Made by a program: the position numbers and the translations under genes | Notes under the pieces: generated by a model | Database searches by the model: none | Told to the model about the DNA's origin: nothing | The model's input: only the letters and a program-made list of their open reading frames with translations | From: Candidatus Diapherotrites archaeon CG11_big_fil_rev_8_21_14_0_20_37_9 | GTDB lineage: Archaea > Iainarchaeota > Iainarchaeia > Iainarchaeales > Iainarchaeaceae | Assembly: GCA_002762975.1 (NCBI GenBank) | Contig: PCWY01000022.1 | Span: forward strand, 1 to 31,430 | Length of the DNA: 31,430 nucleotides | Reading direction: 5' to 3' | Shown here: positions 1,902 to 31,430 of the stretch, one piece after another | Layout: each line of letters starts with the position of its first letter | How positions within the stretch are numbered: the first letter of the stretch is position 1

Positions 1902-2627
1902 TTAATAAGAATTCTTTTTTGCAGGAAACTTTCCTTCTTGGATATCTTTTGCGTACTTTTTTACCGCAGCAACAGCATCCTTTTTCAGATTGGCGTATTT
2001 TTTCAAAAACCTTGGATTGAAGGAGTCATCTGCATTTAATCCGACAAGATCATGGAAAACAAGAACCTGTCCTGCACAATATTTACCTGCACCGATTCCG
2101 ATTGTCGGGATTGTAAGCGTATCTGAAATTAATCTTGAAATTTTTTCAGGAACAAGTTCAAGTACAATCCATGAACAGCCTGCCTTTTCAAGTGCAATTG
2201 CGGAATCAATTAGTTTTTCAGCATCTTTTTTCACAATTGGTTTTGCATCGCTTTGCGGCAAATAACCGATGTGACCCATTACCCTTATTTTATTTTTTGA
2301 CAGTGCCTTTGCAATTTTTTGCTTTTGGCCCTCAATTTTTACCGCGTTTGCACCTGCTTTAAGAAATTTTTTTGCATTGGCAAGCGCTGTTTTTGGTGTT
2401 GAATAGGATCTGTAAGGCATGTCCGCAATAATCATTGCTTTTGGTTCTGCTCTTGCAACCGCTTTCACATGCACAAGCATTTCATTCATCCCGATTTCTC
2501 TTGTGGATTTCATTCCATGCACGACATTTGCCACTGAATCTCCGACAAGAATAATATCAATACCTGCTTCATCAACTATTTTTGCTGAAGGATAATCATA
2601 TGCTGTTACCATTACAATTTTTGTCAT
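1902..2627 (-). CDS. panB: 3-methyl-2-oxobutanoate hydroxymethyltransferase
   Basis: Motifs MVTAYDY, ILVGDS, ADMPY, VKIEG, MGHIG, PTIGIGAG and GQVLVFHD. Confidence 0.95.
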   Translation of the reverse strand: MTKIVMVTAYDYPSAKIVDEAGIDIILVGDSVANVVHGMKSTREIGMNEMLVHVKAVARAEPKAMIIADMPYRSYSTPKTALANAKKFLKAGANAVKIEGQKQKIAKALSKNKIRVMGHIGYLPQSDAKPIVKKDAEKLIDSAIALEKAGCSWIVLELVPEKISRLISDTLTIPTIGIGAGKYCAGQVLVFHDLVGLNADDSFNPRFLKKYANLKKDAVAAVKKYAKDIQEGKFPAKKNSY

Positions 2628-2668
2628 GAAAAAGATTAGATTTATCTGATTAAATAGTTTGCTGAAAG

Positions 2669-3601
2669 CTATTTTGCGGTTTTTTTCAGTTGTTTTAAAT
2701 ACCTTTGAAATTTTCCTGATTTAATTATTCTAAGTGCACTTGCATGTTTTTCTCCCATTGAACGAATGTATAAGTAATCCCATCCTTTTTGTCCTGGATA
2801 ATTTTTATGCAACCATTCGCCTATGGTTTTTCCCAAATCATAACTCCATTCTGGTTCAAAATAATTAGGATAACCAATAGATTTATTTTTTATTTTAGGT
2901 TTTCTATCAAAATCAATTTTTTTATGTTTCTTTTTTTGCAAAATCATGATTCCATGTTCAAGGGCATAAAAAGCATCAACTGCTTCCGCAAAAGGAACAT
3001 CCATTTTAATCACGCGCAATTGCTGCAATCTATGAATTGCCTCATGAATCGGAGTAACTGAATAATATGGGCTTTCGCTGAATCCTTTTGCAAGGTTCAT
3101 TTTTCCTGTTTTTTCATGGATTACACCGCCACCAATATGCCCGTACTTTTTCATATACTTGTAAATTGTTTTTCCCATCTGCCTTGCTTCCAAAAGCTCA
3201 TCTTTACTTGGATTTTTTTCATCAGTTATTGAGGATATAAGGTTGTGGAATATTGTTTGGGAAGTAATGTCAAGTGAATTTTCAAGTATTTTTTTTATTT
3301 CAGATTTTCTCTTTGCTGAAAGGTGTCTGCAAAAAATTTTTGCTGCAAAATCAACTTGTGCAATGAATAATTTTCTGTCTTTTTTAGTTAATTTTGTACC
3401 TGAAAGCATTTCGTTGTATTGAGGGAGAGGCAATTCAAGGTTTCCTTTTTTAATGTGCTTTTTCCCGTGGTATGTCCATTTTTCCGCAAGAAAATTTTCT
3501 GCAAGTTTCTTTGCTTTTACAGAATCAAAACCATCAATTATTTCTCCGGTTAGAATAAAATGAGCTTCGGGAGAATTATCCTTCAATGAATTTTTTGACA
3601 T
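2669..3601 (-). CDS. Lysine-rich hypothetical protein with an HExxH motif
   Basis: 310-aa open frame containing PIHEAIHRL. No family recognised. Confidence 0.7.
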   Translation of the reverse strand: MSKNSLKDNSPEAHFILTGEIIDGFDSVKAKKLAENFLAEKWTYHGKKHIKKGNLELPLPQYNEMLSGTKLTKKDRKLFIAQVDFAAKIFCRHLSAKRKSEIKKILENSLDITSQTIFHNLISSITDEKNPSKDELLEARQMGKTIYKYMKKYGHIGGGVIHEKTGKMNLAKGFSESPYYSVTPIHEAIHRLQQLRVIKMDVPFAEAVDAFYALEHGIMILQKKKHKKIDFDRKPKIKNKSIGYPNYFEPEWSYDLGKTIGEWLHKNYPGQKGWDYLYIRSMGEKHASALRIIKSGKFQRYLKQLKKTAK

Positions 3602-3671
3602 AATTTACACACGTATTTGATTACAACTACATTGCAAGGATAGCTTTAAATTGTTTTATTGATTTTTAACC

Positions 3672-4517: not shown

Positions 4518-4595
4518 TTTAACACAAGTTAACTTTTTTTATACTCTTATTATTCAATGTAATAAGTAAACTAAATTCTTTTTGGAGGTTTTTGG

Positions 4596-5144: not shown

Positions 5145-5159
5145 ATGTGCCTAGAGTTG

Positions 5160-5206
5160 CCTGCTTTGCTTTTGCATTGCAGGTTATCTCCTATTTTTTA
5201 ATTTTT
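5160..5206 (+). terminator. Hairpin plus T tracts after the cupredoxin gene
   Basis: cctgc (5160-5164) pairs with gcagg (5179-5183), inner tgc-tttt-gca; T runs at 5194-5199 and 5202-5206. Confidence 0.5.
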
Positions 5207-5230
5207 CTAATAGTAATTTATGTAATTTTC

Positions 5231-6145
5231 ATGGAAGAAACAAAATTCATTTGGATGAACGGAAAAATGGTTCCTTGGAAGGAAGCAACAGTCCATGTTC
5301 TTACGCATACTCTTCATTACGGCACAGGTGTCTTTGAAGGTATAAGATGCTATGATACAAAGGATGGCTCTGCAATTTTCAGGTTAAAGGAACATGCGAA
5401 AAGACTTCTTGATTCCGCGCACATAATGCAAATGAAAGTTCCTTTTACACAAGAGCAGATTGAAAGTGCCTGTAGGCAGATTGTAAAAGAAAATAATCTA
5501 AAAGAGTGCTACATAAGACCTCTTGTTTATTTTGGTTATGGCCAAATGGGTCTTGCAACAAAAGGTTGCAAGGTTGATGTTTCTGTTGCTGCTTGGCCAT
5601 GGGGTTCATACCTTGGCGAAGATGGCATAAAAAATGGTATCAGGGTTAAGGTTTCTTCGTTTACAAGGCACCATGTGAATGTGATGCCTACAAAATCAAA
5701 AACAGTGGGCAATTATGCGAATAGCACGCTTGCAAAAATGGAAGCACTTAATTCAGGTTATGAGGAAGCAATAATGCTTGATGCTCAAGGTTATATCAGC
5801 GAGTGCAGTGGAGAAAACATTTTCATTGTAAGGGATAATGAAATAATTACTCCTCCTACAACAAATGCGCTTGAGGGAATAACAAGAAAATCAATTATTG
5901 AAGTTGCAAAGTCTTTTGGTTATACTGTTAAAGAAGAGCTCTTTACAAGAGACCAACTTTACATTAGCGATGAAGCTTTTCTTACAGGGACGGCCGCTGA
6001 AGTAACTCCTATAAGGGAAGTTGACAACCGCACAATTGGTAATGGAATGCCAGGGCCAATTACAAAGAAATTCCAGTCAACTTACTTTGACGCAATTCAC
6101 GGCAAGGTTCCTGAATATAAAAAGTGGCTTGATTTTGTAAAATAA
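5231..6145 (+). CDS. ilvE: Branched-chain amino acid aminotransferase
   Basis: LHYGTGVFEGIR, YIRP, EAIMLD.QGYISECSGENIF, LEGITR, FLTGTAAEVTPI. Start moved to ATG 5231 (MEETKFIWMNG) from the track's 5147. Confidence 0.95.
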   Translation: MEETKFIWMNGKMVPWKEATVHVLTHTLHYGTGVFEGIRCYDTKDGSAIFRLKEHAKRLLDSAHIMQMKVPFTQEQIESACRQIVKENNLKECYIRPLVYFGYGQMGLATKGCKVDVSVAAWPWGSYLGEDGIKNGIRVKVSSFTRHHVNVMPTKSKTVGNYANSTLAKMEALNSGYEEAIMLDAQGYISECSGENIFIVRDNEIITPPTTNALEGITRKSIIEVAKSFGYTVKEELFTRDQLYISDEAFLTGTAAEVTPIREVDNRTIGNGMPGPITKKFQSTYFDAIHGKVPEYKKWLDFVK

Positions 6146-6177
6146 GCCTTAAATAGTTCATTAATCTTTAATATATT

Positions 6178-6617: not shown

Positions 6618-6645
6618 CATCTAATTTTTACCGGTTTAATTTTGA

Positions 6646-7302: not shown

Positions 7303-7358
7303 TAAGAATAGTAAATTTTCCTTTAATTTAAACCTTTCCTGCTTGTTTTAGCGATACT

Positions 7359-7368
7359 TATTTAAATT
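7359..7368 (+). promoter_or_regulatory. Putative TATA box of the leu/ilv leader transcript
   Basis: TTTAAATT at 7361-7368, starting 28 nt before ATG 7389; spacing fits an archaeal leaderless start. Confidence 0.55.
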
Positions 7369-7388
7369 TCTAGGACTTAATTATTAAC

Positions 7389-7530: not shown

Positions 7531-7558
7531 AAATGAAAAAAAAAGAAAAGTGAATTTA

Positions 7559-9109
7559 ATGGAAAAAAAAGTAATTAGAATTTTTGACACAACGCTTCGT
7601 GACGGTGAACAAAGTCCGGGCGCGACACTTTCGCATAAAGAAAAAATTTTAATTGCACAGCAACTTGAACGCCTTAATGTTGATATTATTGAAGCTGGTT
7701 TTCCTGTTGCCTCAAAAGATGATTTTAAAGCAGTGAATGAAATCGCAAAAATACTAAAAAAAAGTATTGTTTGTGCTCTTGCAAGATGCAAAAAAGAGGA
7801 TATTGATGTTGCTGCAAAAGCACTTGAGCCTGCAAAGAAAAAAAGGATTCATGTATTCCTTGCAACATCCCCAATCCATATGAAGTACAAGCTCAAGATG
7901 GATGAATCGCAGGTTCTTGAAGAGGCAGAGAAATGGGTTAAGTATGCAAAGCAGTTTGCTGAGGATATTGAATTTTCTCCTGAAGATGCCGGACGATCAA
8001 ATCCTGAATTTCTTTACAAGGTTCTTAGTGTTGCAATAAAAGCAGGCGCAACAACCCTCAATATACCTGATACTGTTGGTTACACTGAACCTGCAGAGTA
8101 CGGAAAATTAATTAAAGGAATAATTGAAAATACTCCTGGATATCATAAAGGAATTATAATTTCCACGCATTGCCATGATGATCTTGGTTTGAGTGTCGCA
8201 AACAGCCTTGCCGCAATTGATGCAGGCGCGACACAGGTTGAGGGTACAATAAATGGTATTGGTGAAAGAGCAGGAAACACTGCGCTTGAAGAGGTAATAA
8301 TGAACCTTCATTCAAGAGAAAATTATTTCAATGCAACAACCAACATTAATCTTTCAGAAATTTACAATACAAGTAGGATGGTTTCATCTTTTACTTCTCT
8401 TGTGGTTCAGCCTAATAAGGCAATTGTTGGAAGGAATGCGTTTGCGCACGAAGCAGGTATTCATCAGCATGGGATTCTTGCAAACAGGGAAGTTTATGAA
8501 ATAATGAATCCAAAAACAATTGGAAAGGAAACTGAACTTGTTATTGGCAAACATTCAGGAAAAGCAGCTATTAATGATTTTTTAAAAAAGAATGGCTATG
8601 ATTTAAACGAACCTGATGTTGCAGAAGTAACTGAAAGGGTTAAGGCTCTTGCGGATAAGAAAAAAATTATTTTTGATGAAGATGTAATTGCAATTGCAAA
8701 CAGCATTACAAACAGCCTTGAACCTGAAACGGTTTTTGTAAAACTCGAAGAAATAATTATTAATACAGGAAATAAAATGAAACCAACTGCAACTGTGAAG
8801 CTCAGTTATCTTTCACATGAAAAAACAGCAGTTGCTTCAGGAGTTGGACCTGTTGATGCAATGGCAAAAGCAATAAGCTCCGCGCTTGGGGAAAAATTTG
8901 AATTAAAAGAATACAATCTGAAAGCAATAACAGGCGGGACTGATGCGCTTGCTGATGTCACTATTGTGGTTTCAAATAAGGGTGGAAAAATTTTTAGTGC
9001 TGAATCACTGAATGAGGACATTACAATGGCTTCTGCTGAGGCTCTGATAAAGGGTATTAATAAAGCAATTGCGTTTGAAAAAAATGAAAAGGGAGATGAG
9101 TCAAAATGA
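7559..9109 (+). CDS. leuA: 2-isopropylmalate synthase
   Basis: [38 protein letters not shown] and a C-terminal regulatory domain with G.GPVDA. Start is GTG 7550 or ATG 7559. Confidence 0.93.
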
Positions 9110-10800
9110 ACGGTGCGCAACAATTTCTTAAATCTTTGAGGAAAAACAAAGTAGAACATGCTTTCGGCATTCCTGGAGGAGTGCTAATTCCATTCTATGA
9201 TGAATTGTATAAGGATAACAGCGGGCTTAAACATATTCTTGTAAGGCATGAGCAAGCAGGAGCCCACATGGCTGAGGGTTATGCAAAAGTATCCGGAAAA
9301 GTAGGCACATGCATTGGAACATCAGGACCTGGTGCCACAAATCTTGTTACAGGTATTGCGGATGCGTTTATGGATTCTGTGCCAATTGTTGCGATTGGCG
9401 GACAAGTTGCTACATCTCTTATAGGAAAGGACGCTTTTCAGGAAGCAGATATGATGGGAATTACGAATCCAATTACAAAGCATAATTTCCAGATAAGAAA
9501 TCCGAATAAGATTGAATCTGTTGTTGATGCGGCTTATTTTATTGCTTCCACAAACAGACCCGGTCCGGTTTATATTGATCTTCCTAAAGATACTCAGCAA
9601 AAAGATGTAACTGGTTCTGAAAAGGTAAATTTATCTGGTTACAAAGTTCTTGAAGGTTTTGATAAAGAGGCTGTAAAGGAGGCTGCAAAACTTTTACTTT
9701 CTGCACAAAGACCTGTAATTCTTGTTGGCGGTGGAGCAGTTCATGCGAATTGTTCACAGGAATTAAAGCAGCTTGCTGAAATTTGTATGATTATGGTTGC
9801 AAGTACCAGTCAAGGTAAGGGCGTTTTTGATGAAAGGCATCCGCTTTCAATTGGCATGACAGGAATGCATGGTAAACCGCCTGCTGTTTTTGCAATTCAA
9901 AAAAGTGATGTGCTTTTTACAATTGGAATGCGTTTCGATGATCGTGTTACAGGACAATTGAATTCTTTTGCACCAGAAGCAAAGGTTATTCATATTGAAA
10001 TTGATCCTAGTGAGATTCACAAAAACAGAACTGCTAACATCCCTATTCTTGGTGATGCAAAAGATGTTCTTACTGAATTAGTTATTGTTATAAAAAAAAT
10101 GCAATGGAAGAACACTGCTTGGTTGGATAAACTGAAATTATTGAAGAAAGAATACCAGGATGATAATCTTGATATTAATACTGAGCCGATTGATCCGAGA
10201 AAATTGATGTTCGAGCTTCAGAAAGTAATTGATGATGACACTATTGTTGCAACAGGTGTCGGCGAGCATCAAATGGATGTTGCGCATTTCATTAAGTTTG
10301 CAAAACCAAGAAAATTCATTACTTCAGGCGGTCTTGGAACAATGGGTTTTGGTTTTCCTGCAGCAATAGGCGCGAAAGTTGCGATGCCAAAAAATGATGT
10401 AATTAATGTTGATGGTGATGGTAGCTTTATGATGACAATGCAGGAACTTGCCACAGTAAAGGTCAATGATATCAAGGTTACTAATATTATAATGAATAAT
10501 GGTTACCTTGGAATGGTAAGAAGTTGGCATGATCTTTTCTATGAAGGTAGGAGAAGCCAGGTTCATCTTGGAAAAATACCTGATTTTGAAAAGCTTGCAA
10601 ATGCATTTTCGCTTGAGGGCATTACTGTTGAAAGGCCATCTGAAATAGGAGATGCATTTAAAAGAGCGCTTGCAAGTGATGGTACTTCTATAGTGAATGT
10701 GCATGTTAAAGAGGATGCAATTGTATTACCTATAGTTCCTGCAGGTGCAAGCAACAGCAAGATGATTGGAGATATGATTCCAAAGGATTATTTTGAATGA
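9106..10800 (+). CDS. ilvB: Acetolactate synthase large subunit
   Basis: FGIPGG, RHEQAGAHMAEGYA, SGPGATN, GQV, TSGGLGTMGFG and the ThDP motif GDGSF...NN. ATGA overlap with leuA. Confidence 0.95.
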   Translation: MNGAQQFLKSLRKNKVEHAFGIPGGVLIPFYDELYKDNSGLKHILVRHEQAGAHMAEGYAKVSGKVGTCIGTSGPGATNLVTGIADAFMDSVPIVAIGGQVATSLIGKDAFQEADMMGITNPITKHNFQIRNPNKIESVVDAAYFIASTNRPGPVYIDLPKDTQQKDVTGSEKVNLSGYKVLEGFDKEAVKEAAKLLLSAQRPVILVGGGAVHANCSQELKQLAEICMIMVASTSQGKGVFDERHPLSIGMTGMHGKPPAVFAIQKSDVLFTIGMRFDDRVTGQLNSFAPEAKVIHIEIDPSEIHKNRTANIPILGDAKDVLTELVIVIKKMQWKNTAWLDKLKLLKKEYQDDNLDINTEPIDPRKLMFELQKVIDDDTIVATGVGEHQMDVAHFIKFAKPRKFITSGGLGTMGFGFPAAIGAKVAMPKNDVINVDGDGSFMMTMQELATVKVNDIKVTNIIMNNGYLGMVRSWHDLFYEGRRSQVHLGKIPDFEKLANAFSLEGITVERPSEIGDAFKRALASDGTSIVNVHVKEDAIVLPIVPAGASNSKMIGDMIPKDYFE

Positions 10801-11276
10801 ATGGGGGTGCATGGGTTATGGAAAAATATATTATAAAATTTCTTGCAGTAAATTCAAGAGGAGTAATTGCACGGCTTTCTGCTCTTATTGCAAGAAAAGG
10901 TTTCAATATTGAGTCTTTTTGTGCAGGCCATCATATCAAAGATGGTGAAAGTTCTATTGTAATAACTTTTTCAGGGTCTGAGGGAGATGTTCAGCAGGCT
11001 GTTGCACAGATGAGCAAACTGATTAACATTATCAGTGCTGAATATTATCACGAAAAGGATGTTGTACAGCGTGAGCTTCTTCTTGTGAAACTCAAAAATG
11101 TTTCAGGAGTAAAAGAAAAGGCTCAGGCTCTTGGCGGCAGGCTTATGAAAGAATATAGTGGATTTGTTGATTTTGAATTTGTCGATAAACCAAACAGTAT
11201 TGAAAAAAATGTCGCTGAATTAAAGAAAAATTTTACTGTGATTGATATTTCAAGGAGCGGTAACAATGCGATTTAA
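10797..11276 (+). CDS. ilvN: Acetolactate synthase small (ACT regulatory) subunit
   Basis: N..GVIARLSALIARKGFNIES ACT domain, QMSKLINII, QRELLLVK and terminal SRSG. Alternative start ATG 10818. Confidence 0.85.
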   Translation: MNGGAWVMEKYIIKFLAVNSRGVIARLSALIARKGFNIESFCAGHHIKDGESSIVITFSGSEGDVQQAVAQMSKLINIISAEYYHEKDVVQRELLLVKLKNVSGVKEKAQALGGRLMKEYSGFVDFEFVDKPNSIEKNVAELKKNFTVIDISRSGNNAI

Positions 11277-11321
11277 TAAAAATTTGCATTGGAAAATATT
11301 ATTGATTAATGGGGTGATGAT

Positions 11322-14841: not shown

Positions 14842-14856
14842 ATTTAACAAAAACCT

Positions 14857-15029: not shown

Positions 15030-15080
15030 AAGTTAAATTAAATTAGGGTTGAAAATAAATTTTGAAAATTGGTGAGGTTT

Positions 15081-22165: not shown

Positions 22166-22238
22166 GGGGATATAGCATAACCTGGTAGTGTACCTGGCTC
22201 CAGACCAGAGGATGGGGGTTCAAATCCCTCTGTCCCCA
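22166..22238 (+). tRNA. tRNA-Trp (anticodon CCA), intron-less, CCA tail not encoded
   Basis: Acceptor ggggata/tgtcccc plus discriminator A, D-arm gcat/gtgt, anticodon arm ctgg-ct-CCA-ga-ccag (CCA at 22200-22202), T-arm ggggg-ttcaaat-ccctc. Confidence 0.93.
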
Positions 22239-22240
22239 CA

Positions 22241-22275: not shown

Positions 22276-22326
22276 CGGTATCAAAAAGAAAGAGAATCAA
22301 GCATAATTTGTGCTTATAATGAAAAA

Positions 22327-23934: not shown

Positions 23935-24518
23935 AAAAAATTCTTTTTATAGATAATTTTGATTCCTTTACATATAACCTTGTGGATGAATTTGAAAAAA
24001 GAAACTGCGAAGTTATTGTGTACAGGAATAATACCCCAATTGAAAAAATAAAGGAAATAATTTCAGAACTCAAACCAGGATTAATAGTAATTTCTCCAGG
24101 TCCTTCAAACCCGGCAAATGCGGGCAACTGCATGCCTATAATAAAGGAATTTTCCGGAAAAGTGCCTATTTTCGGGGTTTGTCTTGGGGAGCAATGCATG
24201 GTTGAGGCATTTGGTGGAAAAGTTGGCAAGGCCCCCGAGACAATCCATGGGAAACCATCTCAGATTTTTCATGATTCCAAAGGGCTTTTTTCAGGGCTTT
24301 CAAACCCTTTTCAGGCAGGCCGTTATCATTCTCTTGCGGGCATTGAAATTCCGAATTGTTTTGAAATCAGCGCCAAAACTGCAGGCGGAATTGTGATGGG
24401 AATACGGCACAGGGAATTTTTTGTTGATGGAGTGCAATTTCACCCTGAAAGCATCCTTACGCCTGAAGGTGGAAAAATTATTGAAAATATTCTCGCAATG
24501 CTGGAGGCAAAAAAATGA
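23931..24518 (+). CDS. trpG: Anthranilate synthase component II (glutamine amidotransferase)
   Basis: IDNFDSFTYNL, SPGPSNP, GVCLG, RYHSL and QFHPES. Confidence 0.95.
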   Translation: MKKILFIDNFDSFTYNLVDEFEKRNCEVIVYRNNTPIEKIKEIISELKPGLIVISPGPSNPANAGNCMPIIKEFSGKVPIFGVCLGEQCMVEAFGGKVGKAPETIHGKPSQIFHDSKGLFSGLSNPFQAGRYHSLAGIEIPNCFEISAKTAGGIVMGIRHREFFVDGVQFHPESILTPEGGKIIENILAMLEAKK

Positions 24519-24598
24519 GTTTTGATAAAAGCCTCCTGCAGAGCAGGGTGCATCGCATCCAACTGACGAAACTGTTGCAGGAGGAAAAAAATGATTAA
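24515..24598 (+). other. 27-aa bridging [30 protein letters not shown] between trpG and trpD
   Basis: GGAGG (24503-24507) plus 7 nt precedes an ATG overlapping the trpG stop (ATGA). Its stop lies just after the trpD ATG. Confidence 0.5.
24532..24584 (+). promoter_or_regulatory. GC-rich hairpin sequestering the trpD RBS
   Basis: Perfect 9-bp cctcctgca (24532-24540) / tgcaggagg (24576-24584), with inner gggtgc-atc-gcatcc. Confidence 0.7.
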
Positions 24599-25604
24599 AG
24601 AAGCAATTTCACAGGTTATTGAAGGCAAAAGCCTTGGCAAAAATGAAGCAAAAGAAGTTTTTGATGAAATAATGTCAGGTAAATGTACTGACGCACAAAT
24701 AGCTTCGCTTATTACTGCGCTTCGCATGAAAGGTGAATCAGTTGAGGAAATAACTGGTGCAGCAGAATCAATGAGAAATGTTGTTGCAAAAGTAAATTAT
24801 TCTGGAAAAGAAGATCTTTTGGATATTGTGGGTACCGGCGGGGATAAGAAAAGCACTTTTAATATTTCAACTGCTTCTTTTTTTGTTGCCGCAGGTGCAG
24901 GATGTATTGTTGCAAAACATGGCAATAAAAGTGTTTCAAGCAAATCGGGAGCTGCTGATGTACTTACTGAGTTAGGGATTAATGTTGAAACATTGCCTGA
25001 AAGAAATTCTCAGATCCTTTCAAAAATCGGTTTAACTTTCATGTTTGCCCCTAAACATCACCCTGCAATGAAATATGCAATCGGACCAAGAAAGGAAATT
25101 GGGGTAAGAACTATTTTCAACATTCTTGGACCAATAACAAATCCTGCAAATGCAAATACTTATTTGCTTGGAGCTTATTCAAAGGAACTTGCGGAAAAAC
25201 TTGCTAATGTACTTTTAGGTCTTAATGTAAAAAAAGCAATTGTTGTTCACGGCTCGGGCTATGATGAGGCAACTCTTGTTGGAAAAACAGCTGCTTTTAT
25301 TGCTGAAAATAATTTTGTAACAAAAATAGAATTTGCTCCTGGAAAATTTGGGTTTTCTGCATGCTCTGATAAAGATCTTATGGTTGATTCTCCAAAAGAA
25401 TCTGCGGAAATAATAAAAAAAATTCTTGAAGGAAAAGAAAAAGGCCCAAAAAGGGATATTGTTCTCCTTAATGCAGGGATTGCGATTTATGCAAACGGGA
25501 AAGCAAAAAGTATTTCCAATGGAATTGAAATGGCAAAAAATAGCATTGAGTCTGGAAAAGCGCTTGCAAAACTAATGGAACTTTTGGAGGAATCAAACAA
25601 ATGA
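24591..25604 (+). CDS. trpD: Anthranilate phosphoribosyltransferase
   Basis: [47 protein letters not shown] and G.DE. Confidence 0.96.
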
Positions 25605-26989
25605 ATTTTCTTGAAAAAATTGCGGAAAGCACCGAAGCACAAGTTATAATGAAGAAAAAAATTCTTCCATTAGACAAAATAATGCGAAATGTGAAAAAGG
25701 GAAACCACGCTTTTTTGAATACAATTAAGGGAAAAAATAAGTTGTCTGTTATAGCCGAATTCAAAAAAAGTTCTCCTTCCGCAGGAAAAATTAACTCTTC
25801 CGCAAATTTGAAACAATTCATAAAACTTTATGATGAATATGCTGACTGCATATCCATTCTTACTGAAGAAAAATATTTTTCAGGGAAAATAAGTTATATT
25901 GCCGATGCTAAAAAAATTACTAAAAATCCTTTGCTTAGAAAGGATTTCATTATTGATGAATACCAGATTTATGAAGCAAGGTACTTTGGCGCGGATGCTG
26001 TTCTTTTAATTGAAAAACTTTTATCCAAAAAAATGCTTGAATATTTTATTAGCATAGCTGATTCAATTGGAATGGATTGCCTTGTGGAATGCCATGATAT
26101 ACGCGGACTGAAAAAAGTTCTTGATTCTGGTGCGAAAATTATTGGCATTAATAATAGAAATCTTGAAACTTTTAAAGAGGATTTTGGTAATACTGAAAAA
26201 CTTGTAAAAAAAATTCCTATAAAGAAAAGAAAAGATGTTATAATTGTTTCAGAATCATCAATTGATTCGATTGAAAAAATACGAAAATTACAGGGCAAAG
26301 TTGATGCTGTACTTGTGGGTTCTGCTATAATGTCTGCACCTGTTCCAAGAGTAAAGCTCAGGGAAATTAATGGAAAAACTCTTACAAAGATATGCGGAAT
26401 TACAACTGAAAGTGATGCAAAACAAGCTGTTTCTCTTGGTGCTGATTTTATTGGACTTAATTTTTATTCAAAAAGCCCAAGGTTCGTTTCGGTAAAAAAA
26501 GCCAAAATAATTGCCAATGCGGTTAAAGGAAAGTGTGTTTTGGTAGGGGTTTTTGTCGATGAATCTTCTGTAAAAGTAAAGCGAATTGCAAAAACAGTTG
26601 GATTGAATATGTTGCAGTTTTCCGGGAACGAATCTGAAAGTTATGTTAAAAAATTTAAAATTCCTTCAATAAAGGCAGTTCGTTTGAGCAAAAAAAATGG
26701 TATTAAAAAGTATTTTAAATACAAAACAAATTTTTTGTTAATTGATGCATTTGAAAAAGGACTTTTCGGCGGAACCGGTAAAACAGTTTCCAAAAACCTT
26801 TTGAATAAGTCTATTTTCAGTACGGGAAAAGTTGCTTTGTCAGGCGGATTAACCCCTGAAAATATAACTGATTTGGTAAGGCAGTATAATCCTGTTTTTG
26901 TGGATGTTTGTTCAGGAGTTGAATCATTTCCCGGAAAGAAAAGCTTTTCTAAAATGAAATCGTTTATTAGATATACACAGGTGATTTAA
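25601..26989 (+). CDS. trpCF: Fused indole-3-glycerol-phosphate synthase / phosphoribosylanthranilate isomerase
   Basis: [34 protein letters not shown] and GINNRNL, then KICGIT, GLNFY.KSPR, D.F..G.FGGTG, LSGGL.PEN and DVCSGVE in one 462-aa frame. Confidence 0.93.
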
Positions 26990-28179
26990 TGATTGGTAGA
27001 TTTGGCGAATATGGCGGACAGTTTGTTCCTGAAACACTTATGCCTGCAGTTAAAGAACTTGAAGTTGCATTTGAAAAATATAAAAATGATTCTGAATTTA
27101 ATGCCGAATTTGAATCTTTGTTAAAAAATTTTGTAGGCAGACCTACAGCACTTACTTTTGCCAGGCATTTAAGCAAAAAACTTAATTGTAAAGTTTATTT
27201 GAAACGCGAAGATCTTGCACATACTGGTGCGCATAAAATTAACAATGCGCTTGGTCAGGCATTGCTTGCAAAAAAAATGGGTAAAAAAAGAGTTATTGCA
27301 GAAACAGGTGCAGGTCAACATGGTGTTGCAACTGCAATTGCGTGTGCAATGCTTGGAATTGAATGTGAAATTTATATGGGTGAAGTTGATATTGAAAGAC
27401 AGAAACCAAATGTTTTCAGAATGAAACTTGCTGGTGCAAAGGTGACGCCTGTTGCAAGCGGAACAAAAACTCTGAAAGATGCTATTAATGAAGCTTTGCG
27501 CGACTGGACTGCAAATGTGAATACAACACATTATCTTCTTGGTTCGGTTCTTGGTCCGCATCCTTATCCTGAAATGGTTGCACATTTCCAAAGTGTTATC
27601 GGAAAGGAAGCAAGGGCACAGATACTTGAAAGAGAAGGCCAATTACCGAAAGCTATTATTGCTTGTGTTGGCGGAGGCAGTAATGCAATAGGAATTTTCA
27701 GCGGTTTTTTGAAAGATAAAGAAGTTGAACTTATAGGAGTTGAGGCAGGTGGGCTTGGAATTAAAAGTGGTAAGCACGCAGCCAGATTTGCAGATCCTAA
27801 ATTGGGGCGAAAGGGCGTGCTCCATGGAACAATGACTTATGTTCTCCAAGATAAATTCGGGCAAATTTATAATACTCATTCAGTTTCAGCTGGACTTGAT
27901 TATAGTGCGGTTGGTCCTGAGCATGCTAATCTGAAGGATATTGGTAGGGCAAGTTATAGTTATGCAACCGATTCTGAAGCACTTGCTGCATTCAAATTGC
28001 TTTCTGAAAAAGAAGGAATTATTCCTGCATTAGAATCAAGTCACGCAGTTGCCTACCTTTTGAAATATGCAAAAAAACTTTCTCCTGAGGATATTGTAAT
28101 TGTAAACATTTCAGGAAGAGGAGATAAGGATCTGGATATTGTTTTAAAGGAAATGGGGGGTAAAAATGAGGCATTTTAA
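26989..28179 (+). CDS. trpB: Tryptophan synthase beta chain (TrpB1-type)
   Basis: [62 protein letters not shown] and SGRGDKD. Confidence 0.97.
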
Positions 28180-28573
28180 AAAACTCCCAACTCAGGAAGT
28201 AGTGGATTTGACTGTTACAACAAAAAGTTTGTGTACTCGGACTCAGGGTTATTTTTTAACTGCACTTAAGCAAGGAAAAATACATGAAATTAAGGCAAAC
28301 ATTAGGGGAAAGCCTACTAGGCTTTTTGTCAAAGGAATTGAAGAAGCAAATGGGAAAGTAGTATATAATCATACTCCTGTTGGTAGTGAAGTAATTGGGT
28401 ATGCTGCAGGGTATAACTCAGAAACTCACCAATATTGTCGTCTTGGGGTAGAAGATGGCAAAATTTTTGTTTATAATGCTTATAATCTGGATGCAAGTAC
28501 GGGCAAACCAGGTTTTGAAGCAAGTCATAAAGTTAAAACTGCTTTTAAAAATCACGGTGAAACTCATGAATAG
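28166..28573 (+). CDS. Uncharacterised 135-aa protein inserted between trpB and trpA
   Basis: Overlaps trpB by 14 nt and trpA by 8 nt, and carries the GGTGA RBS of trpA. No recognised family. Confidence 0.7.
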
Positions 28574-29366
28574 ATACAAAATTACTTTTGAAAAATTAAG
28601 GCAAAAAAAACAAGGCGCTTTTATTCCATTTGTTGTTTTGGGGGACCCTGATTTTGAAACTTCGAAAAAGATTCTTGAAAAAATGGTAAAACATGCTGAT
28701 TGCATTGAACTAGGTTTTCCTTTTTCGGATCCGATTGCTGATGGAAAAAGAATTCAGGCAGCGGATGAACGTGCGATTAATGCTGGAATTAACCCTGATA
28801 AGTGCTTTGAACTTATAAAACATGTAAGGTCAATCAATAAGGAAATACCTATAGGCCTTTTGATTTATTATAATATAGTTTTTACTTCAGGAATAAATAA
28901 TTTTTTGGCAAAAACAAAAAAAGCAGGGGTTGATGCAATTCTTGTTGCTGACATGCCATTGGAAGAATCAAGTGAATTTAATTCTAAATGTATTTCTTCT
29001 GGTATTGAACAGGTTTTTATTGCAGCGCCAACAACAGGCAAGGAAAGGCTTGCCAAAATTATTTCCAAAAGTACTGCCTTTGTATATGTGGTAGGTGTTC
29101 TGGGGGTTACAGGAGAAAGGAAAAATGTTGATTCTTCTGCTGGAAGAATAGTTTCTTCGATAAAAAATATTTCAAAAATACCTGCGTGTGTGGGTTTTGG
29201 AATTTCAAAACCTGAACATGTAAAAAAAATTATTGGAGAAGGTGCAGATGGAGCAATAGTGGGATCTGCAGTTGAGGCAATAATTGAAGAAAATCTTTGT
29301 AATAAAAAAATCATGCTTGAAAAACTTGATGCTTTTTTTAAGGCAATAAAAAATGCGACGTGTTGA
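28566..29366 (+). CDS. trpA: Tryptophan synthase alpha chain
   Basis: FIPFVVLGDPD, IELGFPFSDPIADG..IQ, LIYYN, GVTG, VGFGIS and ADGAIVGSA. Start moved to ATG 28566 (GGTGA RBS). Confidence 0.95.
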   Translation: MNRYKITFEKLRQKKQGAFIPFVVLGDPDFETSKKILEKMVKHADCIELGFPFSDPIADGKRIQAADERAINAGINPDKCFELIKHVRSINKEIPIGLLIYYNIVFTSGINNFLAKTKKAGVDAILVADMPLEESSEFNSKCISSGIEQVFIAAPTTGKERLAKIISKSTAFVYVVGVLGVTGERKNVDSSAGRIVSSIKNISKIPACVGFGISKPEHVKKIIGEGADGAIVGSAVEAIIEENLCNKKIMLEKLDAFFKAIKNATC

Positions 29367-30631
29367 AAATGGATTTTGTTGAAATCAAAAAAATTGGTTC
29401 CTTATCAGCGGATATTGTAGCACCTCCTTCAAAAGCACATACTTTGAGAGCGCTTTTCATAAGCGCGCTTGCTGAAGGAAAAAGTACGCTTAGAAATGCC
29501 CTGAATGCTGAGGATCAGCAGATTGCAGCAAAAGCACTAAATGATCTTGGGGCAAAAATAGTTTTTAATGGAAAAGATTACCTTGTGCAGGGTGCTGAAG
29601 GGCAACTTTCTTCACCAAAGGAAATTATTTATACTGCTAATTCAGGTGTTACAACAAGATTTTTGATTCCAATTGCAGGAATAGCAAAAGGCAATACTAT
29701 TATTGATGGCTCTGAAAGAATGCGGGAAAGACCAATTAAAGAATTACTTGAATCTGCATCAAAAATTGGACTTAAAACAGAATCAAAAGAAGGAAAACTT
29801 CCAGTAAAAGTGATTGGTAAAACTCTTATCGGAGGCAAAACAGAAATTGATGCTTCTGAAAGCTCACAGTTTTTAAGCGCCCTGCTTATTGCAGGCCCAT
29901 TGACAGAAAATGGTATGTCTGTTTCTGTAAAGGGTGAAATGCGATCAAAACCCTATGTGGATATTACTCTTGATTGCATGGCTGATTTTGGAGTTAAAAC
30001 TGATAGGGAAGGATATGAAAGTTTTTTTGTGAAAAGCGGACAAAGTTACAAAGGAAGGGATTATTTAATTGAAGGAGACTACAGTTCTTCCTCTTATTTA
30101 TTTGCAGCAGCAGCAATTACAGGCGGAATTGTAAAAGTAAGGAATCTCAATAAAAATTCTGCACAAGGAGATAAAGAATTTATTTATTTTTTGGAAAAAA
30201 TGGGATGCAATGTTAATTTTTCAGGAGACTCTATTGTTGTTGAAGGAAATTCGCTCAATGCAATTGATGTTGACATGTCTTCCTGTCCTGATGTTGTGCC
30301 CACGCTTGCAGTTGTTGCCGCATTTGCAGAGGGTAAAACAAGAATTAGTAACATTTCTCATCTTTCTGCAAAGGAAAGTAATAGGATTGAAACAACCGCT
30401 GAAAACCTACGCAGGTGCGGGATAAAAGCAATTCCTGGAAAGGATTTTCTTGAAATAATTGGTGGCAAACCCCATGGCGCGGTTATTGAACCGTATAATG
30501 ATCACCGTATTGCAATGGCCTTTTCAATTATGGGGCTTCAAACAGGTGAAATGAGAATCAATAATCCAAATTGTGTTGGAAAAAGTTTTCCTGATTTTTT
30601 TTCAGTATTGAAAAAGTTTTATGGTGATTAA
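29360..30631 (+). CDS. aroA: 3-phosphoshikimate 1-carboxyvinyltransferase (EPSP synthase)
   Basis: PPSKAHTLRA, NSG.T.RF, RERP, SSQFLSALL, SKPYVDIT, EGDYSSSSY, KESNRI and DHRIAM...V.KSFPDF. Confidence 0.95.
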   Translation: MLKMDFVEIKKIGSLSADIVAPPSKAHTLRALFISALAEGKSTLRNALNAEDQQIAAKALNDLGAKIVFNGKDYLVQGAEGQLSSPKEIIYTANSGVTTRFLIPIAGIAKGNTIIDGSERMRERPIKELLESASKIGLKTESKEGKLPVKVIGKTLIGGKTEIDASESSQFLSALLIAGPLTENGMSVSVKGEMRSKPYVDITLDCMADFGVKTDREGYESFFVKSGQSYKGRDYLIEGDYSSSSYLFAAAAITGGIVKVRNLNKNSAQGDKEFIYFLEKMGCNVNFSGDSIVVEGNSLNAIDVDMSSCPDVVPTLAVVAAFAEGKTRISNISHLSAKESNRIETTAENLRRCGIKAIPGKDFLEIIGGKPHGAVIEPYNDHRIAMAFSIMGLQTGEMRINNPNCVGKSFPDFFSVLKKFYGD

Positions 30632-31147
30632 TTGAATATTGCACTTATTGGTTACAGGGCTACTGGCAAAACAACAATCGGAAAAAAACTTGCTAAAAGA
30701 ATGAATATGAAATTTTTGGATACTGATAAGATTATTGAAAAGAAAATAGGTAAAAAAATAAAAGATTTTTTTGATGAGCACGGAGAAAAGGAATTCAGGG
30801 AAATTGAATCAACTGTTCTTAAAGAAATTTGTTTGGGGGATGAACAATGTATTTCTTGCGGTGGGGGAATAGTTATTCTTCCTGAAAACAGGGATTTGCT
30901 GAAAAAAAAATGTGTTGTTGTATTACTTGAATCAACTCCTCAGGCTATTTACATGAGAACAAAAAAGGATAGTAAAAGACCCGCATTAACTTCGTTCGAT
31001 AAATTTGATGAAATCGTAAATGTTCTTGAGGAGCGTAAGGATAAGTATGAATCAATTGCAAATGTCCGTGCAGACACTTCCAGCATATCCATTGAAAAGG
31101 TTGTTCAAGTTATAATTGATAAACTTGTTGAGGGGGGTTACATTTGA
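30632..31147 (+). CDS. aroK: Shikimate kinase, bacterial P-loop (AroK/AroL) type
   Basis: IGYRATGKTTIG, DTD..IE, FREIE, GGG, RP.L and R...Y. GGTGA RBS precedes the TTG start. Confidence 0.9.
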   Translation: MNIALIGYRATGKTTIGKKLAKRMNMKFLDTDKIIEKKIGKKIKDFFDEHGEKEFREIESTVLKEICLGDEQCISCGGGIVILPENRDLLKKKCVVVLLESTPQAIYMRTKKDSKRPALTSFDKFDEIVNVLEERKDKYESIANVRADTSSISIEKVVQVIIDKLVEGGYI

Positions 31148-31430
31148 AGGTCCGTGTTAACCTGTTTAAAAAAACTGATTTGAGCTACGATATTGAAATT
31201 CACGAATCTGCAAATATGGCTGAATTGATTTGTTCGGATAATTTTGGTTTGAAATACTGTATTATTACTGATTCTAATCTGGAAAAATCTCTTGGCAAAA
31301 AACTTTTAGATCAATTCAAAAAACAGGGTGCAAATGCCGAATTAGTGTCTTTTCCAAGCGGTGAAAAGAACAAGAATCTGAAAACTGTAGCAGGTATTCT
31401 TGAAAAAATGCATGAATTTGGATTTGACAG
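31144..31430 (+). CDS. aroB: 3-dehydroquinate synthase, N-terminal part (truncated by the window edge)
   Basis: TTG overlapping the aroK stop; hand translation gives ...YCIITDSNL...SFPSGEKNKNLKTV..ILEKM...GFD. Confidence 0.85.
   Translation, partial: MKVRVNLFKKTDLSYDIEIHESANMAELICSDNFGLKYCIITDSNLEKSLGKKLLDQFKKQGANAELVSFPSGEKNKNLKTVAGILEKMHEFGFD

What the first reader, a model, noticed from the sequence alone, without database searches (positions are those of the whole stretch)
1902..31430. Amino-acid biosynthesis supercluster of mixed ancestry in a probable DPANN genome
Seen: about 25 branched-chain, pantothenate-entry, shikimate, Phe, Trp and glutamate genes, including precursor supply (transketolase for erythrose-4-P, GdhA for amino groups). 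Established: most DPANN lack these pathways; many euryarchaea use a non-canonical route to dehydroquinate; archaeal shikimate kinase is typically GHMP-type. Here the DAHP synthase/AroB route, P-loop AroK, TrpCF fusion and enteric-like TrpE motifs (LLESAD, MNMGTL) look bacterial, while the signals are archaeal. Inference: horizontally assembled prototrophy island.
Basis: partly seen in the sequence, partly recalled or inferred. Interest (0 to 1): 0.65.

Follow-up and report, generated by a model that had tools for sequence, protein, structure and literature searches.

The report
Conserved amino-acid biosynthesis supercluster, Iainarchaeota
A small-genome DPANN archaeon (Iainarchaeota) carries one long run of genes for making branched-chain and aromatic amino acids. 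The run is an old, inherited feature of its order built largely from bacterial-type genes, not a recently acquired island, and this fits what is already reported for this unusually self-sufficient DPANN group.

Summary
The window is a whole 31.4-kb contig with 21 amino-acid or precursor genes: panB, ilvE, leuA-ilvBNC-leuB, pheA, split tkt, aroF, gdhA, tRNA-Trp, trpEGD(CF)BA, aroA, aroK and the first 95 codons of aroB. The host is DPANN. Its nearest relatives are named Ca. Iainarchaeum/Diapherotrites, and AR10 is in the same order.

The cluster is compositionally native. It keeps its gene order across several Iainarchaeales families, and it diverges in step with its archaeal flanks (kaiC, cmk). 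So it is old and vertically inherited, and patchily present, not a recent island.

Ancestry is mixed:
- **Bacterial-type:** TrpE, TrpD, the TrpC-F and CM-PDT fusions, P-loop AroK and LeuA. The GHMP kinase passes its cut-off in 0 of 215 Iainarchaeota genomes.
- **Nearest non-DPANN relatives:** for TrpE and AroF, every labelled one is bacterial.
- **Archaeal-type:** GdhA, cmk, kaiC and the split transketolase.
- **New detail:** this genome's leuB is a replacement at the same slot. It is 75-84% identical to Woesearchaeota/Nanoarchaeota-labelled genes and about 36% to the leuB of its own family.

Interest is modest. Anabolic richness in Iainarchaeota is already published.

The parts
560..1835 (-). 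kaiC-family ATPase (560-1264) and archaeal-type CMP kinase (1269-1835). These are archaeal flanking genes kept next to the cluster in relatives.
   Evidence: NCBIfam KaiC_arch models and TIGR02173 cyt_kin_arch. Same neighbours in G008 (73% and 70% identity) and G038/AR10 (60% and 51%).
1902..2627 (-). panB, ketopantoate hydroxymethyltransferase. It takes 2-oxoisovalerate into pantothenate synthesis.
   Evidence: PRK00311 284.9 bits (cut-off 272) and TIGR00222. Syntenic in G008 and G038.
5147..6145 (+). ilvE, branched-chain amino-acid transaminase.
   Evidence: PRK06606 479 bits (cut-off 279). 70% identical in G008 and 62% in G038 at the same place.
7550..12305 (+). leuA-ilvB-ilvN-ilvC: 2-isopropylmalate synthase, acetolactate synthase large and small subunits, and ketol-acid reductoisomerase.
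   Evidence: leuA passes TIGR00973 leuA_bact (666 vs 598.7) and fails LEU1_arch (415 vs 484.75). 73-80% identical to L001 and G008, except the fast-evolving ilvN, which is 45% identical even in the same genus.
12302..13447 (+). leuB, 3-isopropylmalate dehydrogenase of a different subfamily from the one in relatives. It is a xenologous replacement at the same slot.
   Evidence: No orthologue above 44% identity in 214 other Iainarchaeota genomes. 75-84% identical to Woesearchaeota/Nanoarchaeota-labelled proteins. Nested among them in the tree, in a 41-row clade with SH-aLRT 97. Codon usage at the 90th percentile of the genome background.
13510..14385 (+). AEC-family (Mem_trans) permease conserved inside the cluster.
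   Evidence: PF03547 and TIGR00946. 53-60% identical in L001, L003 and G008 at the same place.
15069..16148 (+). pheA, a chorismate mutase-prephenate dehydratase fusion with a C-terminal ACT region.
   Evidence: PRK11898 279 bits (cut-off 219) plus chorismate mutase domain models. This fusion is common in Bacteria and rare in Archaea, where it is seen in a few DPANN and TACK genomes (PMC11237513).
16261..17091 (+). Bro-N domain gene inserted between pheA and tkt. It is not part of the pathway.
   Evidence: PF02498 49.7 bits. Absent at this place in all relatives. G008 has a 65% identical copy between aroD and aroE.
17161..18920 (+). Split transketolase, N half (17161-17970) and C half (17967-18920). 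It supplies erythrose-4-phosphate.
   Evidence: NF004559 halves. The split form is the usual archaeal state (PMC11237513). A second, divergent tkt type (32-46% identity) sits at this slot in G008, L002 and L004.
18920..19936 (+). aroF, DAHP synthase type I-beta with an N-terminal FXD regulatory domain.
   Evidence: PRK08673 478 bits (cut-off 335) and TIGR01361 397 (cut-off 267.75). Carries PF18152 plus PF00793. PDB 1rzm matches over the full length.
19937..20578 (+). Histidine-phosphatase (PGM/cobC-like) family gene always found next to aroF. Its role is unknown; phosphoserine phosphatase or phosphoglycerate mutase is a guess.
   Evidence: Hits only below the cut-offs. Conserved after aroF in L001-L005, G008 and G038.
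20700..21971 (+). gdhA, glutamate dehydrogenase of the archaeal/thermophile type.
   Evidence: Best model is NF040817 GdhA_Arch (494 bits, below its cut-off of 750). Best PDB matches are 1euz, 1gtm and 1bvu. Present here in L001, L002, L004 and L005, but not at this place in G008 or G038.
22166..22239 (+). tRNA-Trp(CCA), 88 nt upstream of trpE.
   Evidence: ARAGORN. The same tRNA sits just upstream of trpE in L004, L005, G008 and G038.
22327..29366 (+). trpE-trpG-trpD-trpCF-trpB-(orfX)-trpA, a whole-pathway tryptophan operon with a trpC-trpF fusion. orfX (28166-28573) is an extra 135-aa ORF found only here.
   Evidence: TrpE passes PRK13564 (502 vs 471) and fails TrpE-arch (380 vs 512). PDB: enteric TrpE 327 bits full length vs 1qdl 221; TrpCF best match is 1pii; TrpD nearer to bacterial chains. 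Trees. orfX.
29360..31147 (+). aroA (EPSP synthase) and aroK (P-loop shikimate kinase).
   Evidence: TIGR01356 434 bits. AroK best model is PRK13947, and it passes PF01202. The archaeal GHMP kinase passes its cut-off in 0 of 215 Iainarchaeota genomes but in all 4 archaeal controls.
31144..31430 (+). aroB, 3-dehydroquinate synthase. Only the first 95 codons are present because the contig ends here.
   Evidence: 45-46% identical to the N-termini of TIGR01357-positive AroB in G008 and G038, where aroD, aroE and aroC follow.

Best explanation
This is a native, long-standing biosynthetic supercluster of an Iainarchaeales (DPANN cluster 1) archaeon.

**What it encodes.** Co-directional, translationally coupled operons cover four functions:
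- Val/Leu/Ile synthesis: leuA-ilvBNC-leuB plus ilvE, with ilvD and leuC elsewhere in the genome.
- Entry to pantothenate: panB.
- Chorismate synthesis by the canonical route: split transketolase makes E4P, followed by DAHP synthase, AroB, [AroD, AroE], P-loop AroK, AroA and [AroC].
- Phe (CM-PDT), Trp (TrpEGD(CF)BA) and ammonium assimilation (GdhA).

Several enzymes carry regulatory parts: the FXD domain on DAHP synthase, ACT regions on PheA and IlvN, the LLES motif in TrpE and the C-terminal domain of LeuA. This points to a working, end-product-controlled pathway.

**Evolution (inferred).** The modules, which are mostly of the type found in Bacteria, were already present before the Iainarchaeales families diverged. 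They have since been inherited vertically. Since then they have been lost often, so their presence is patchy. They have also been rearranged, and single genes have occasionally been replaced in place. The clear case here is leuB, taken from a Woesearchaeota/Nanoarchaeota-type donor.

**Shown:** gene identities, host lineage, synteny, native composition, distribution, and the leuB replacement.
**Inferred:** enzyme activity, feedback control, and a bacterial source for the trp and aro modules.
For: **Gene identities:**

**Host lineage:**
- The nearest aroF loci are archaeal MAGs, including Ca. Iainarchaeum archaeon UBA10205 (75% identity).
- TrpE hits are labelled Diapherotrites or AR10. AR10's 1,241,428-bp contig matches G038, which is 'same order'.
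- The genome is 1.13 Mb and 85% complete.

**Native composition:**
- Contig C66 ranks 15th of 87 in tetranucleotide distance, and all of its 5-kb segments lie inside the background.
- Codon usage of every cluster gene lies between the 4th and 90th percentile.

**Synteny:**
- G008 (same family) keeps the full order from kaiC and cmk through panB/ilvE and the BCAA, pheA-tkt-aroF, trp and aroAKBDEC blocks. G038 (another family) keeps the same order without the BCAA block. Identities are similar for flanks and cluster genes.
- Identical TrpE, LeuB and AroF proteins also occur on an independent 73.7-kb contig.

**Distribution:**
- aroF is in 15 of 22 same-family genomes and about a third of other families.
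- TrpE is in 58 of 215 genomes of the phylum, all in one order.
- AroK is in 57 of 215.

**Bacterial type:**
- TrpE passes PRK13564 and fails TrpE-arch.
- PDB matches favour enteric TrpE, E. coli TrpCF and bacterial TrpD.
- In the careful ML tree, the window sits in a family clade (100/99), a core Iainarchaeales clade (100/97) and a DPANN clade (89/95). The labelled neighbours outside that clade are all Bacteria.
- AroF forms separate Iainarchaeales and Woesearchaeota clades in a trichotomy with Omnitrophota, Spirochaetota and Proteobacteria.
- The GHMP kinase passes its cut-off in 0 of 215 Iainarchaeota genomes, against 4 of 4 archaeal controls.
- TrpCF and CM-PDT fusions are rare in Archaea (PMC11237513).

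**leuB replacement:**
Against: - No taxon-labelled non-DPANN archaeal sequences could be placed in my trees. Only 5-10 outgroup tips carry names, so 'bacterial origin' rests on similarity ranking, curated-model membership and a few labelled neighbours.
- The direction of transfer (Bacteria to DPANN, or the reverse) is not rooted.
- DAHP synthase is uninformative. Its catalytic core scores as high against 1vs1 and 1zco (A. pernix and P. furiosus, organisms from my memory) as against bacterial chains.
- Patchy presence could reflect repeated gain rather than loss. Some Iainarchaeales TrpE sequences (G040, G172, G053, G070) do not join the core clade, and other genomes in the phylum hold quite different TrpE types.
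- aroD, aroE, aroC and most of aroB are missing from this assembly, and no prephenate dehydrogenase was found. Pathway completeness in this genome is therefore inferred from relatives.
- No activity has been measured.
Confidence: 0.7

Rival explanations
1. Modular exchange among DPANN. The aromatic, tryptophan and branched-chain modules move repeatedly between DPANN phyla (Iainarchaeota and Woesearchaeota/Nanoarchaeota). Patchy presence would then mainly reflect gains, and the supercluster would be assembled from such transfers.
For: - leuB here clearly comes from a Woesearchaeota/Nanoarchaeota-type lineage.
- The tkt slot holds two unrelated types among close relatives.
- Woesearchaeota-labelled TrpE is 57-59% identical, almost as close as TrpE from other Iainarchaeales families (54-63%), and the DPANN TrpE clade is an unresolved mix of both labels.
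- TrpE and LeuB hits labelled Woesearchaeota share contig lengths (22699, 58135, 33504 and 100624), so those contigs carry both genes.
- Genus g6 of the same family holds a different TrpE and a different AroF type.
Against: - The window's TrpE and AroF sit in well-supported Iainarchaeales clades that follow family groupings.
- Flank and cluster genes show similar divergence to G008 and G038.
- In the AroF tree the Iainarchaeales and Woesearchaeota clades are each monophyletic.
- Taxon labels are the submitters' own and were not checked.
Confidence: 0.2
2. Pure vertical retention. The genes descend from the free-living DPANN or archaeal ancestor, and their bacterial look is only rate or sampling bias.
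For: [quoted passage not shown]
- GdhA, cmk, kaiC and the split tkt are archaeal-type.
- The DAHP synthase core scores well against crenarchaeal and thermococcal enzymes.
Against: - TrpE fails the archaeal equivalog and passes the enteric-type one.
- All labelled non-DPANN neighbours of TrpE and AroF are Bacteria.
- The P-loop AroK replaces the GHMP kinase that all four archaeal controls have.
- The TrpCF and CM-PDT fusions are bacterial traits that are rare in Archaea.
Confidence: 0.08
3. Recent genomic island, or a mis-binned or chimeric contig of bacterial DNA.
For: - The contig carries many bacterial-type genes.
- A Bro-N gene and an orphan ORF are inserted in it.
- The genome is a fragmented MAG of 87 contigs.
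Against: - Tetranucleotide and codon usage are native.
- Archaeal genes lie on the same contig.
- The same arrangement occurs in at least 7 related genomes, including the closed AR10 genome.
- No integrase or flanking repeats were seen.
- Estimated contamination is 1.6%.
Confidence: 0.02

Closest known systems
Anabolic repertoire reported for Iainarchaeota/Diapherotrites (Ca. Iainarchaeum andersonii; archaeon GW2011_AR10)
   Same: Same order. AR10 (G038) holds the same pheA-tkt-aroF-phosphatase-tRNA-Trp-trpEGD(CF)BA-aroAKBDEC run next to kaiC-cmk-panB-ilvE. The literature says this phylum may have enough anabolism for free life (PMC10936187; PMC6349945; PMC8407392).
   Different: This genome also joins the leuA-ilvBNC-leuB block and gdhA to the run. 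It carries a Woesearchaeota-type leuB, a Bro-N insert and an orphan ORF inside the trp operon. I could not read Youssef et al. 2015 (not held). A 2021 survey listed complete aromatic and branched-chain pathways only for Altiarchaeota and Micrarchaeota.
Enterobacterial-type tryptophan operon (TrpE of the PRK13564 type, bifunctional TrpC-TrpF as in E. coli, PDB 1pii)
   Same: Whole-pathway gene order E-G-D-(CF)-B-A. The TrpC-TrpF fusion is in the same orientation. TrpE aligns over its full length and passes the PRK13564 cut-off. The LLES feedback motif is present. A gammaproteobacterial MAG (L008) has aroF-trpEGD(CF)BA in the same order.
   Different: Identity is only 34-58%. trpG and trpD are not fused. 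No leader-peptide attenuator of the enteric kind was established here. A tRNA-Trp gene precedes trpE. The host is an archaeon.
Bacillus subtilis aromatic supraoperon (trp operon nested among aro genes; from my own knowledge)
   Same: The trp genes are embedded in a longer co-directional run of common-pathway aro genes, so aromatic precursor supply and Trp synthesis are linked.
   Different: The gene set and order differ: here there are tkt, pheA, gdhA and aroAKBDEC, with no hisC-tyrA. No TRAP-type control is known. This is similarity of layout, not homology of the arrangement.
HGT and gene loss shaping host dependency in Micrarchaeota (PMC12892359)
   Same: The same evolutionary pattern is proposed for a sister DPANN cluster 1 phylum. 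Some lineages keep or gain substantial biosynthetic capacity while others lose it (abstract).
   Different: A different phylum. I did not compare gene sets.

Membership tests
DPANN host (phylum Iainarchaeota, order Iainarchaeales) | Closest genomes are named members of the lineage | tested here: met
   L001 is Ca. Iainarchaeum archaeon UBA10205 (aroF 75%, kaiC 74% on another contig). TrpE and AroF hits are labelled Candidatus Diapherotrites and archaeon GW2011_AR10, and AR10's 1,241,428-bp contig is G038, 'same order'. Iainarchaeota belongs to DPANN cluster 1 (PMC13473441).
DPANN host (phylum Iainarchaeota, order Iainarchaeales) | Small genome of about 1-1.5 Mb | tested here: met
   1.13 Mb at 85% completeness. 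Relatives are 0.5-1.5 Mb.
Recently acquired genomic island | Composition or codon usage deviates from the host genome | tested here: not met
   Tetranucleotide rank 15 of 87. All 5-kb segments lie within the background. Codon usage lies between the 4th and 90th percentile.
Recently acquired genomic island | Absent from sister genomes at the same site | tested here: not met
   The same order and flanks occur in G008, G038 and L001-L005.
Recently acquired genomic island | Bounded by integrase, tRNA target and direct repeats | tested here: not met
   No integrase among the ORFs. The tRNA-Trp is internal and conserved in relatives. I did not scan systematically for flanking repeats.
Canonical shikimate pathway (DAHP synthase plus AroB) | DAHP synthase and 3-dehydroquinate synthase are present, and the archaeal DHQS-II is absent | tested here: met
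   TIGR01361 scores 397.9 against a cut-off of 267.75. The AroB N-terminus is present, with full AroB in relatives. PF01959 was not found in G000 and matches only M. jannaschii, H. volcanii and M. acetivorans among the controls.
Canonical shikimate pathway (DAHP synthase plus AroB) | All seven steps are encoded in this genome | tested here: inconclusive
   aroD, aroE, aroC and most of aroB are not in the assembly because the contig ends inside aroB. They follow aroK directly in G008 and G038.
Archaeal GHMP-type shikimate kinase (TIGR01920) | Match above the curated cut-off | tested here: not met
   G000's best match is 26.6 bits against a cut-off of 126.85. 0 of 215 Iainarchaeota genomes pass, against 4 of 4 archaeal controls. 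The kinase here is the P-loop SKI type.
Enteric/proteobacterial-type TrpE (NCBIfam PRK13564) | Score above the curated cut-off over the full length | tested here: met
   502.4 bits against 471, covering residues 22-533. TIGR00565 trpE_proteo scores 436.8 and is below its cut-off of 494.65. TrpE-arch scores 380 and is below 512.
Bifunctional TrpC-TrpF (NCBIfam PRK09427) | One polypeptide with IGPS then PRAI domains, and a score above the cut-off | tested here: inconclusive
   Both domains lie in one 462-aa ORF, covering model positions 8-456 of 461. The score of 360.9 bits is just under the cut-off of 380. The best PDB match is 1pii over its full length. The architecture is met; equivalog membership is not.
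Xenologous replacement of leuB from a Woesearchaeota/Nanoarchaeota-type donor | Same slot, a different subfamily from sister genomes, and nested within the donor clade | tested here: met
   Relatives have a leuB of 36% identity at this slot. None of 214 genomes in the phylum has this type. It is 75-84% identical to 17 proteins labelled Woesearchaeota or Nanoarchaeota and nests among them. Donor labels are the submitters' own.

The most novel reading that the evidence does not exclude
Prototrophy modules (aro, trp, BCAA) circulate as cassettes between DPANN phyla. Iainarchaeales and Woesearchaeota-type lineages would share a common, originally bacterial-type supercluster and exchange parts of it, letting small-genome archaea switch between host dependence and autonomy. 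The leuB swap seen here would be one visible event of that traffic. The conserved tRNA-Trp in front of trpE might belong to a lineage-specific control of the operon.
Probability: 0.25. Interest if true: 0.55.

Novelty: new member of a known kind. Interest (0 to 1): 0.3.

Why it matters
DPANN archaea are usually described as host-dependent organisms with almost no biosynthesis. This window shows in detail how one of the known exceptions is built: a compact, feedback-regulated set of operons, mostly of bacterial type, that the order has carried for a long time and that many of its members have lost. That bears on whether DPANN autonomy is ancestral or regained. It also gives concrete genes for testing function by complementation: the TrpCF fusion, the P-loop AroK, the FXD-domain DAHP synthase and the swapped leuB. 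The finding is not surprising to specialists. Anabolic richness and cross-domain transfer in Iainarchaeota/Diapherotrites are already in the literature.

Tried and rejected
1. **Wrong first guess.** I first took the host for an ammonia-oxidising Nitrososphaerota, because of 36% G+C, a cupredoxin and KaiC. I dropped this: no AmoA was found (though the control did not match either), and the nearest genomes are Iainarchaeota.
2. **No 16S rRNA** in the assembly.
I could not fetch the Woesearchaeota contigs that carry leuB and trpE, nor name the unlabelled TrpE neighbours (P0121, P0125, P0126, P0128).
4. **The metagenome scan with LeuB** returned 80 loci at 59-76% identity from organisms of 32-65% G+C. 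None had the supercluster. It showed only that this LeuB subfamily is widespread and slowly evolving.
5. **ilvN as a second replacement:** rejected. It is 39-49% identical across the whole family and 45% in the same genus, so it is simply fast-evolving.
6. **DAHP synthase as a bacterial marker:** rejected as undecidable.
7. **orfX** (28166-28573): no Pfam hit, and ESM Atlas scores of 0.87 are below the level that means anything.
8. **Youssef et al. 2015** is not held.

Full report
**What is there.** The window is the whole of contig C66 (31,430 bp). It belongs to a 1.13-Mb, 87-contig genome that is 85% complete with 1.6% contamination. ORF listing and NCBIfam/Pfam scans give this gene map:
- On the minus strand: a KaiC-family ATPase, an archaeal-type CMP kinase, panB and two unknown genes.
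- On the plus strand: a cupredoxin, ilvE, leuA-ilvB-ilvN-ilvC-leuB, an AEC-family permease, a DUF4870 protein and pheA (chorismate mutase-prephenate dehydratase).
- Then a Bro-N domain gene, transketolase as N and C halves, a type I-beta DAHP synthase with an N-terminal FXD domain (PF18152), a histidine-phosphatase-family gene and gdhA.
- Then tRNA-Trp, trpE, trpG, trpD, a trpC-trpF fusion, trpB, an orphan 135-aa ORF, trpA, aroA, P-loop aroK and an ORF cut by the contig end.

The cut ORF is the N-terminus of AroB. It is 45-46% identical to the start of the TIGR01357-positive gene that follows aroK in two relatives, where aroD, aroE and aroC come next. That makes 21 biosynthetic genes. The motifs LLESAD and MNMGTL are in TrpE. 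Most junctions overlap by a few bases or abut.

**Who the host is.** My first guess, a Nitrosopumilus-like archaeon, was wrong. The closest aroF loci in the species-representative genomes are archaeal MAGs, one named Candidatus Iainarchaeum archaeon UBA10205 (75% identity). TrpE and AroF homologues are labelled Candidatus Diapherotrites and archaeon GW2011_AR10. AR10's 1,241,428-bp contig is the single contig of G038, which the genome tool ranks as 'same order'. Iainarchaeota is placed in DPANN cluster 1 (PMC13473441).

**Is it an island?** No.
- *Composition.* The contig's tetranucleotide profile ranks 15th of 87 contigs in distance from the genome mean. Every 5-kb segment lies inside the background range.
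- *Codon usage.* Each cluster gene lies between the 4th and 90th percentile of 481 long ORFs from the rest of the genome. leuB is the one at the 90th.
- *Same-family synteny.* G008, in the same family, has the arrangement on a 76-kb contig: kaiC, cmk, panB, ilvE, leuA-ilvBNC-leuB, permease, pheA, tkt, aroF, phosphatase, tRNA-Trp, trpEGD(CF)BA, aroA, aroK, aroB, aroD, aroE, aroC.
- *Other-family synteny.* The closed AR10 genome, in another family, keeps everything except the branched-chain block and gdhA.
- *Matched divergence.* Identities to G008 are 70-73% for the flanks (kaiC, cmk) and 66-83% for ilvE, ilvB, pheA, aroF, trpE, trpD and trpB. To AR10 they are 51-60% and 56-73%. Flanks and cluster have therefore diverged together.
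- *Independent assembly.* Identical TrpE, LeuB and AroF proteins are also recorded on an independent 73.7-kb contig. This argues against a chimeric assembly.

**Distribution.** aroF is found in 15 of 22 other genomes of the family and in roughly a third of the other families sampled. A TrpE homologue is in 58 of 215 genomes of the phylum, all within one order: f1 16/22, f21 13/23, f11 10/38, f3 0/22, f27 0/13. AroK is in 57 of 215. Modules move as units. AR10 has no ilvN or leuB match at all. G037 keeps trp on another contig. Genus g6 of the same family has a different TrpE and a different DAHP synthase type.

**Ancestry, gene by gene.** The evidence falls into three groups.

*Bacterial-type:*
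- **TrpE** passes the curated cut-off of PRK13564 (502 vs 471) and fails the archaeal equivalog TIGR01820 (380 vs 512). It aligns over its full length to chains 1i7q and 1i1q (327 and 317 bits), which I know as the Serratia and Salmonella enzymes. Chain 1qdl, the Sulfolobus enzyme, gives 221 bits on the C-terminal half only.
- An exhaustive search of 1.8 billion cluster representatives found no TrpE representative above 51% identity. Every named one I could look up is bacterial: Eremiobacterota, Acidobacteriota, Phycisphaerales and two Gammaproteobacteria.
- A careful ML tree (LG+C20, 50 rows) places the window in its family clade (100/99), then with AR10 (100/98), then in a core Iainarchaeales clade (100/97). 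That clade sits inside a DPANN clade with Woesearchaeota/Nanoarchaeota-labelled sequences (89/95). Only Bacteria are among the labelled rows outside it (quick tree).
- **TrpD** scores higher against bacterial chains (264) than against 5noe and 1gxb (226 and 205).
- **TrpCF** best matches the bifunctional 1pii.
- A survey of archaeal fusions found trpF-trpC fused in only two assemblies. It found CM-PDT fusions only in a few DPANN and TACK genomes, whereas they are common in Bacteria (PMC11237513).
- **Shikimate kinase.** The GHMP kinase model passes its cut-off in all four archaeal control genomes, in none of the ten bacterial controls, and in 0 of 215 Iainarchaeota genomes. G000 has one P-loop kinase, the one in this window.
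- **LeuA** passes leuA_bact and fails LEU1_arch.

*Undecided:*
- **DAHP synthase.** The database neighbours beyond the order are a mix of Woesearchaeota-labelled and bacterial proteins at 52-56% identity. The tree is a trichotomy of an Iainarchaeales clade, a Woesearchaeota clade and a bacterial clade. The catalytic core scores as well against 1vs1 and 1zco (Aeropyrum and Pyrococcus, organisms from my memory) as against the Thermotoga core.

*Archaeal-type:*
- GdhA: best model GdhA_Arch, best chains 1euz, 1gtm and 1bvu.
- CMP kinase and KaiC.
- The split transketolase, which is the usual archaeal state.

The archaeal DHQS-II is not found in G000.

**A replacement caught in place.** leuB stands out. 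Neighbours ilvC and the permease are 53-80% identical to relatives, but leuB is only 36%.
- None of 214 other genomes of the phylum has this leuB type.
- More than a hundred database clusters are 75-84% identical. All 17 that carry an organism name are labelled Woesearchaeota, Nanoarchaeota or Nanoarchaeia.
- In the tree the window's LeuB is nested several levels deep among them (clades at SH-aLRT 97, 99 and 93). The resident Iainarchaeales leuB lies across a branch of about 3 substitutions per site.

This is a xenologous displacement at the same slot, from another DPANN lineage. The transketolase slot shows the same kind of turnover in G008, L002 and L004 (32-46% identity, against 52-82% in the others). 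ilvN, which also looked odd, is just fast-evolving.

**How it most likely works.** Transketolase supplies erythrose-4-phosphate and GdhA supplies amino groups. The FXD-domain DAHP synthase commits carbon to the canonical seven-step route to chorismate. CM-PDT and the Trp operon branch from there. The branched-chain block, together with ilvD (contig C76) and an aconitase-family leuC (C69), makes Val, Leu and Ile and feeds panB. Regulatory domains on DAHP synthase, PheA, IlvN, LeuA and TrpE suggest classical end-product inhibition. All of this is inferred from family membership. No prephenate dehydrogenase was found, and the last four aro genes are off the end of the contig.

**Novelty.** That Iainarchaeota/Diapherotrites have unusual anabolic capacity is published, and cross-domain transfer into DPANN is widely reported. 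The points that go beyond what I could find are:
- the conserved supercluster layout across Iainarchaeales families;
- the phylum-wide absence of the archaeal shikimate kinase;
- the close tie to Woesearchaeota-type genes;
- the leuB swap.

This is a well-characterised new member of a known kind, of modest interest.

Noticed in passing
window 22166-22239; L004 10399-10473; L005 10483-10558; L011 19072-19145; L014 2092-2164: tRNA-Trp(CCA) lies directly upstream of trpE on the same strand. This holds here and in four of six related loci, spanning at least two families (G008 and AR10). The linkage is conserved, not accidental. Its meaning (co-transcription or regulation) is untested.
   Followed up: partly
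window 28166-28573: A 135-aa ORF sits between trpB and trpA. Its start overlaps the trpB stop by 14 nt, and its end meets the likely trpA start (about 28569). It has no homologue in any fetched relative or elsewhere in the genome, and no Pfam hit. ESM Atlas gives only sub-threshold viral look-alikes (0.87) and a poor structural model.
   Followed up: partly
window 16261-17091; L011 6224-7090: A Bro-N domain gene interrupts pheA and tkt only in this genome. G008 has a 65% identical copy inserted elsewhere in the same supercluster, between aroD and aroE. These genes seem to land repeatedly inside the cluster.
   Followed up: partly
window 19937-20578 and the matching gene in L001-L005, L011, L014: A histidine-phosphatase-family gene (cobC/PspA/dPGM-like, below all curated cut-offs) always follows aroF. 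It could supply serine for TrpB or act on phosphoglycerate for PEP supply. The function is unknown.
   Followed up: no
G011, G014, G018, G027, G046, G047, G053, G070, G095, G149, G172 (places listed): In several Iainarchaeales genomes the AroK match lies in open frames of 520-636 aa. This suggests AroK fused to a neighbouring aro enzyme. In this window aroK is a separate 171-aa gene.
   Followed up: no
G013, G019 (family f1, genus g6); G139-G156 (f11 g43); G026, G057, G067 (f5): Other Iainarchaeota genomes carry a quite different TrpE (34-41% identity, aligning from about residue 150). In g6 the DAHP synthase also matches only from about residue 79, the catalytic core. This implies separate origins of the aromatic genes within the phylum.
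   Followed up: partly
window 2669-4517 (-), 4596-5144 (+), 6646-7302 (-), 14440-14841 (+): Two unknown ORFs (310 and 281 aa, no family hits), a cupredoxin, a 218-aa ORF with a weak DUF3348 hit and a DUF4870 protein lie between the biosynthetic blocks. None was found at these places in the relatives' loci.
   Followed up: no
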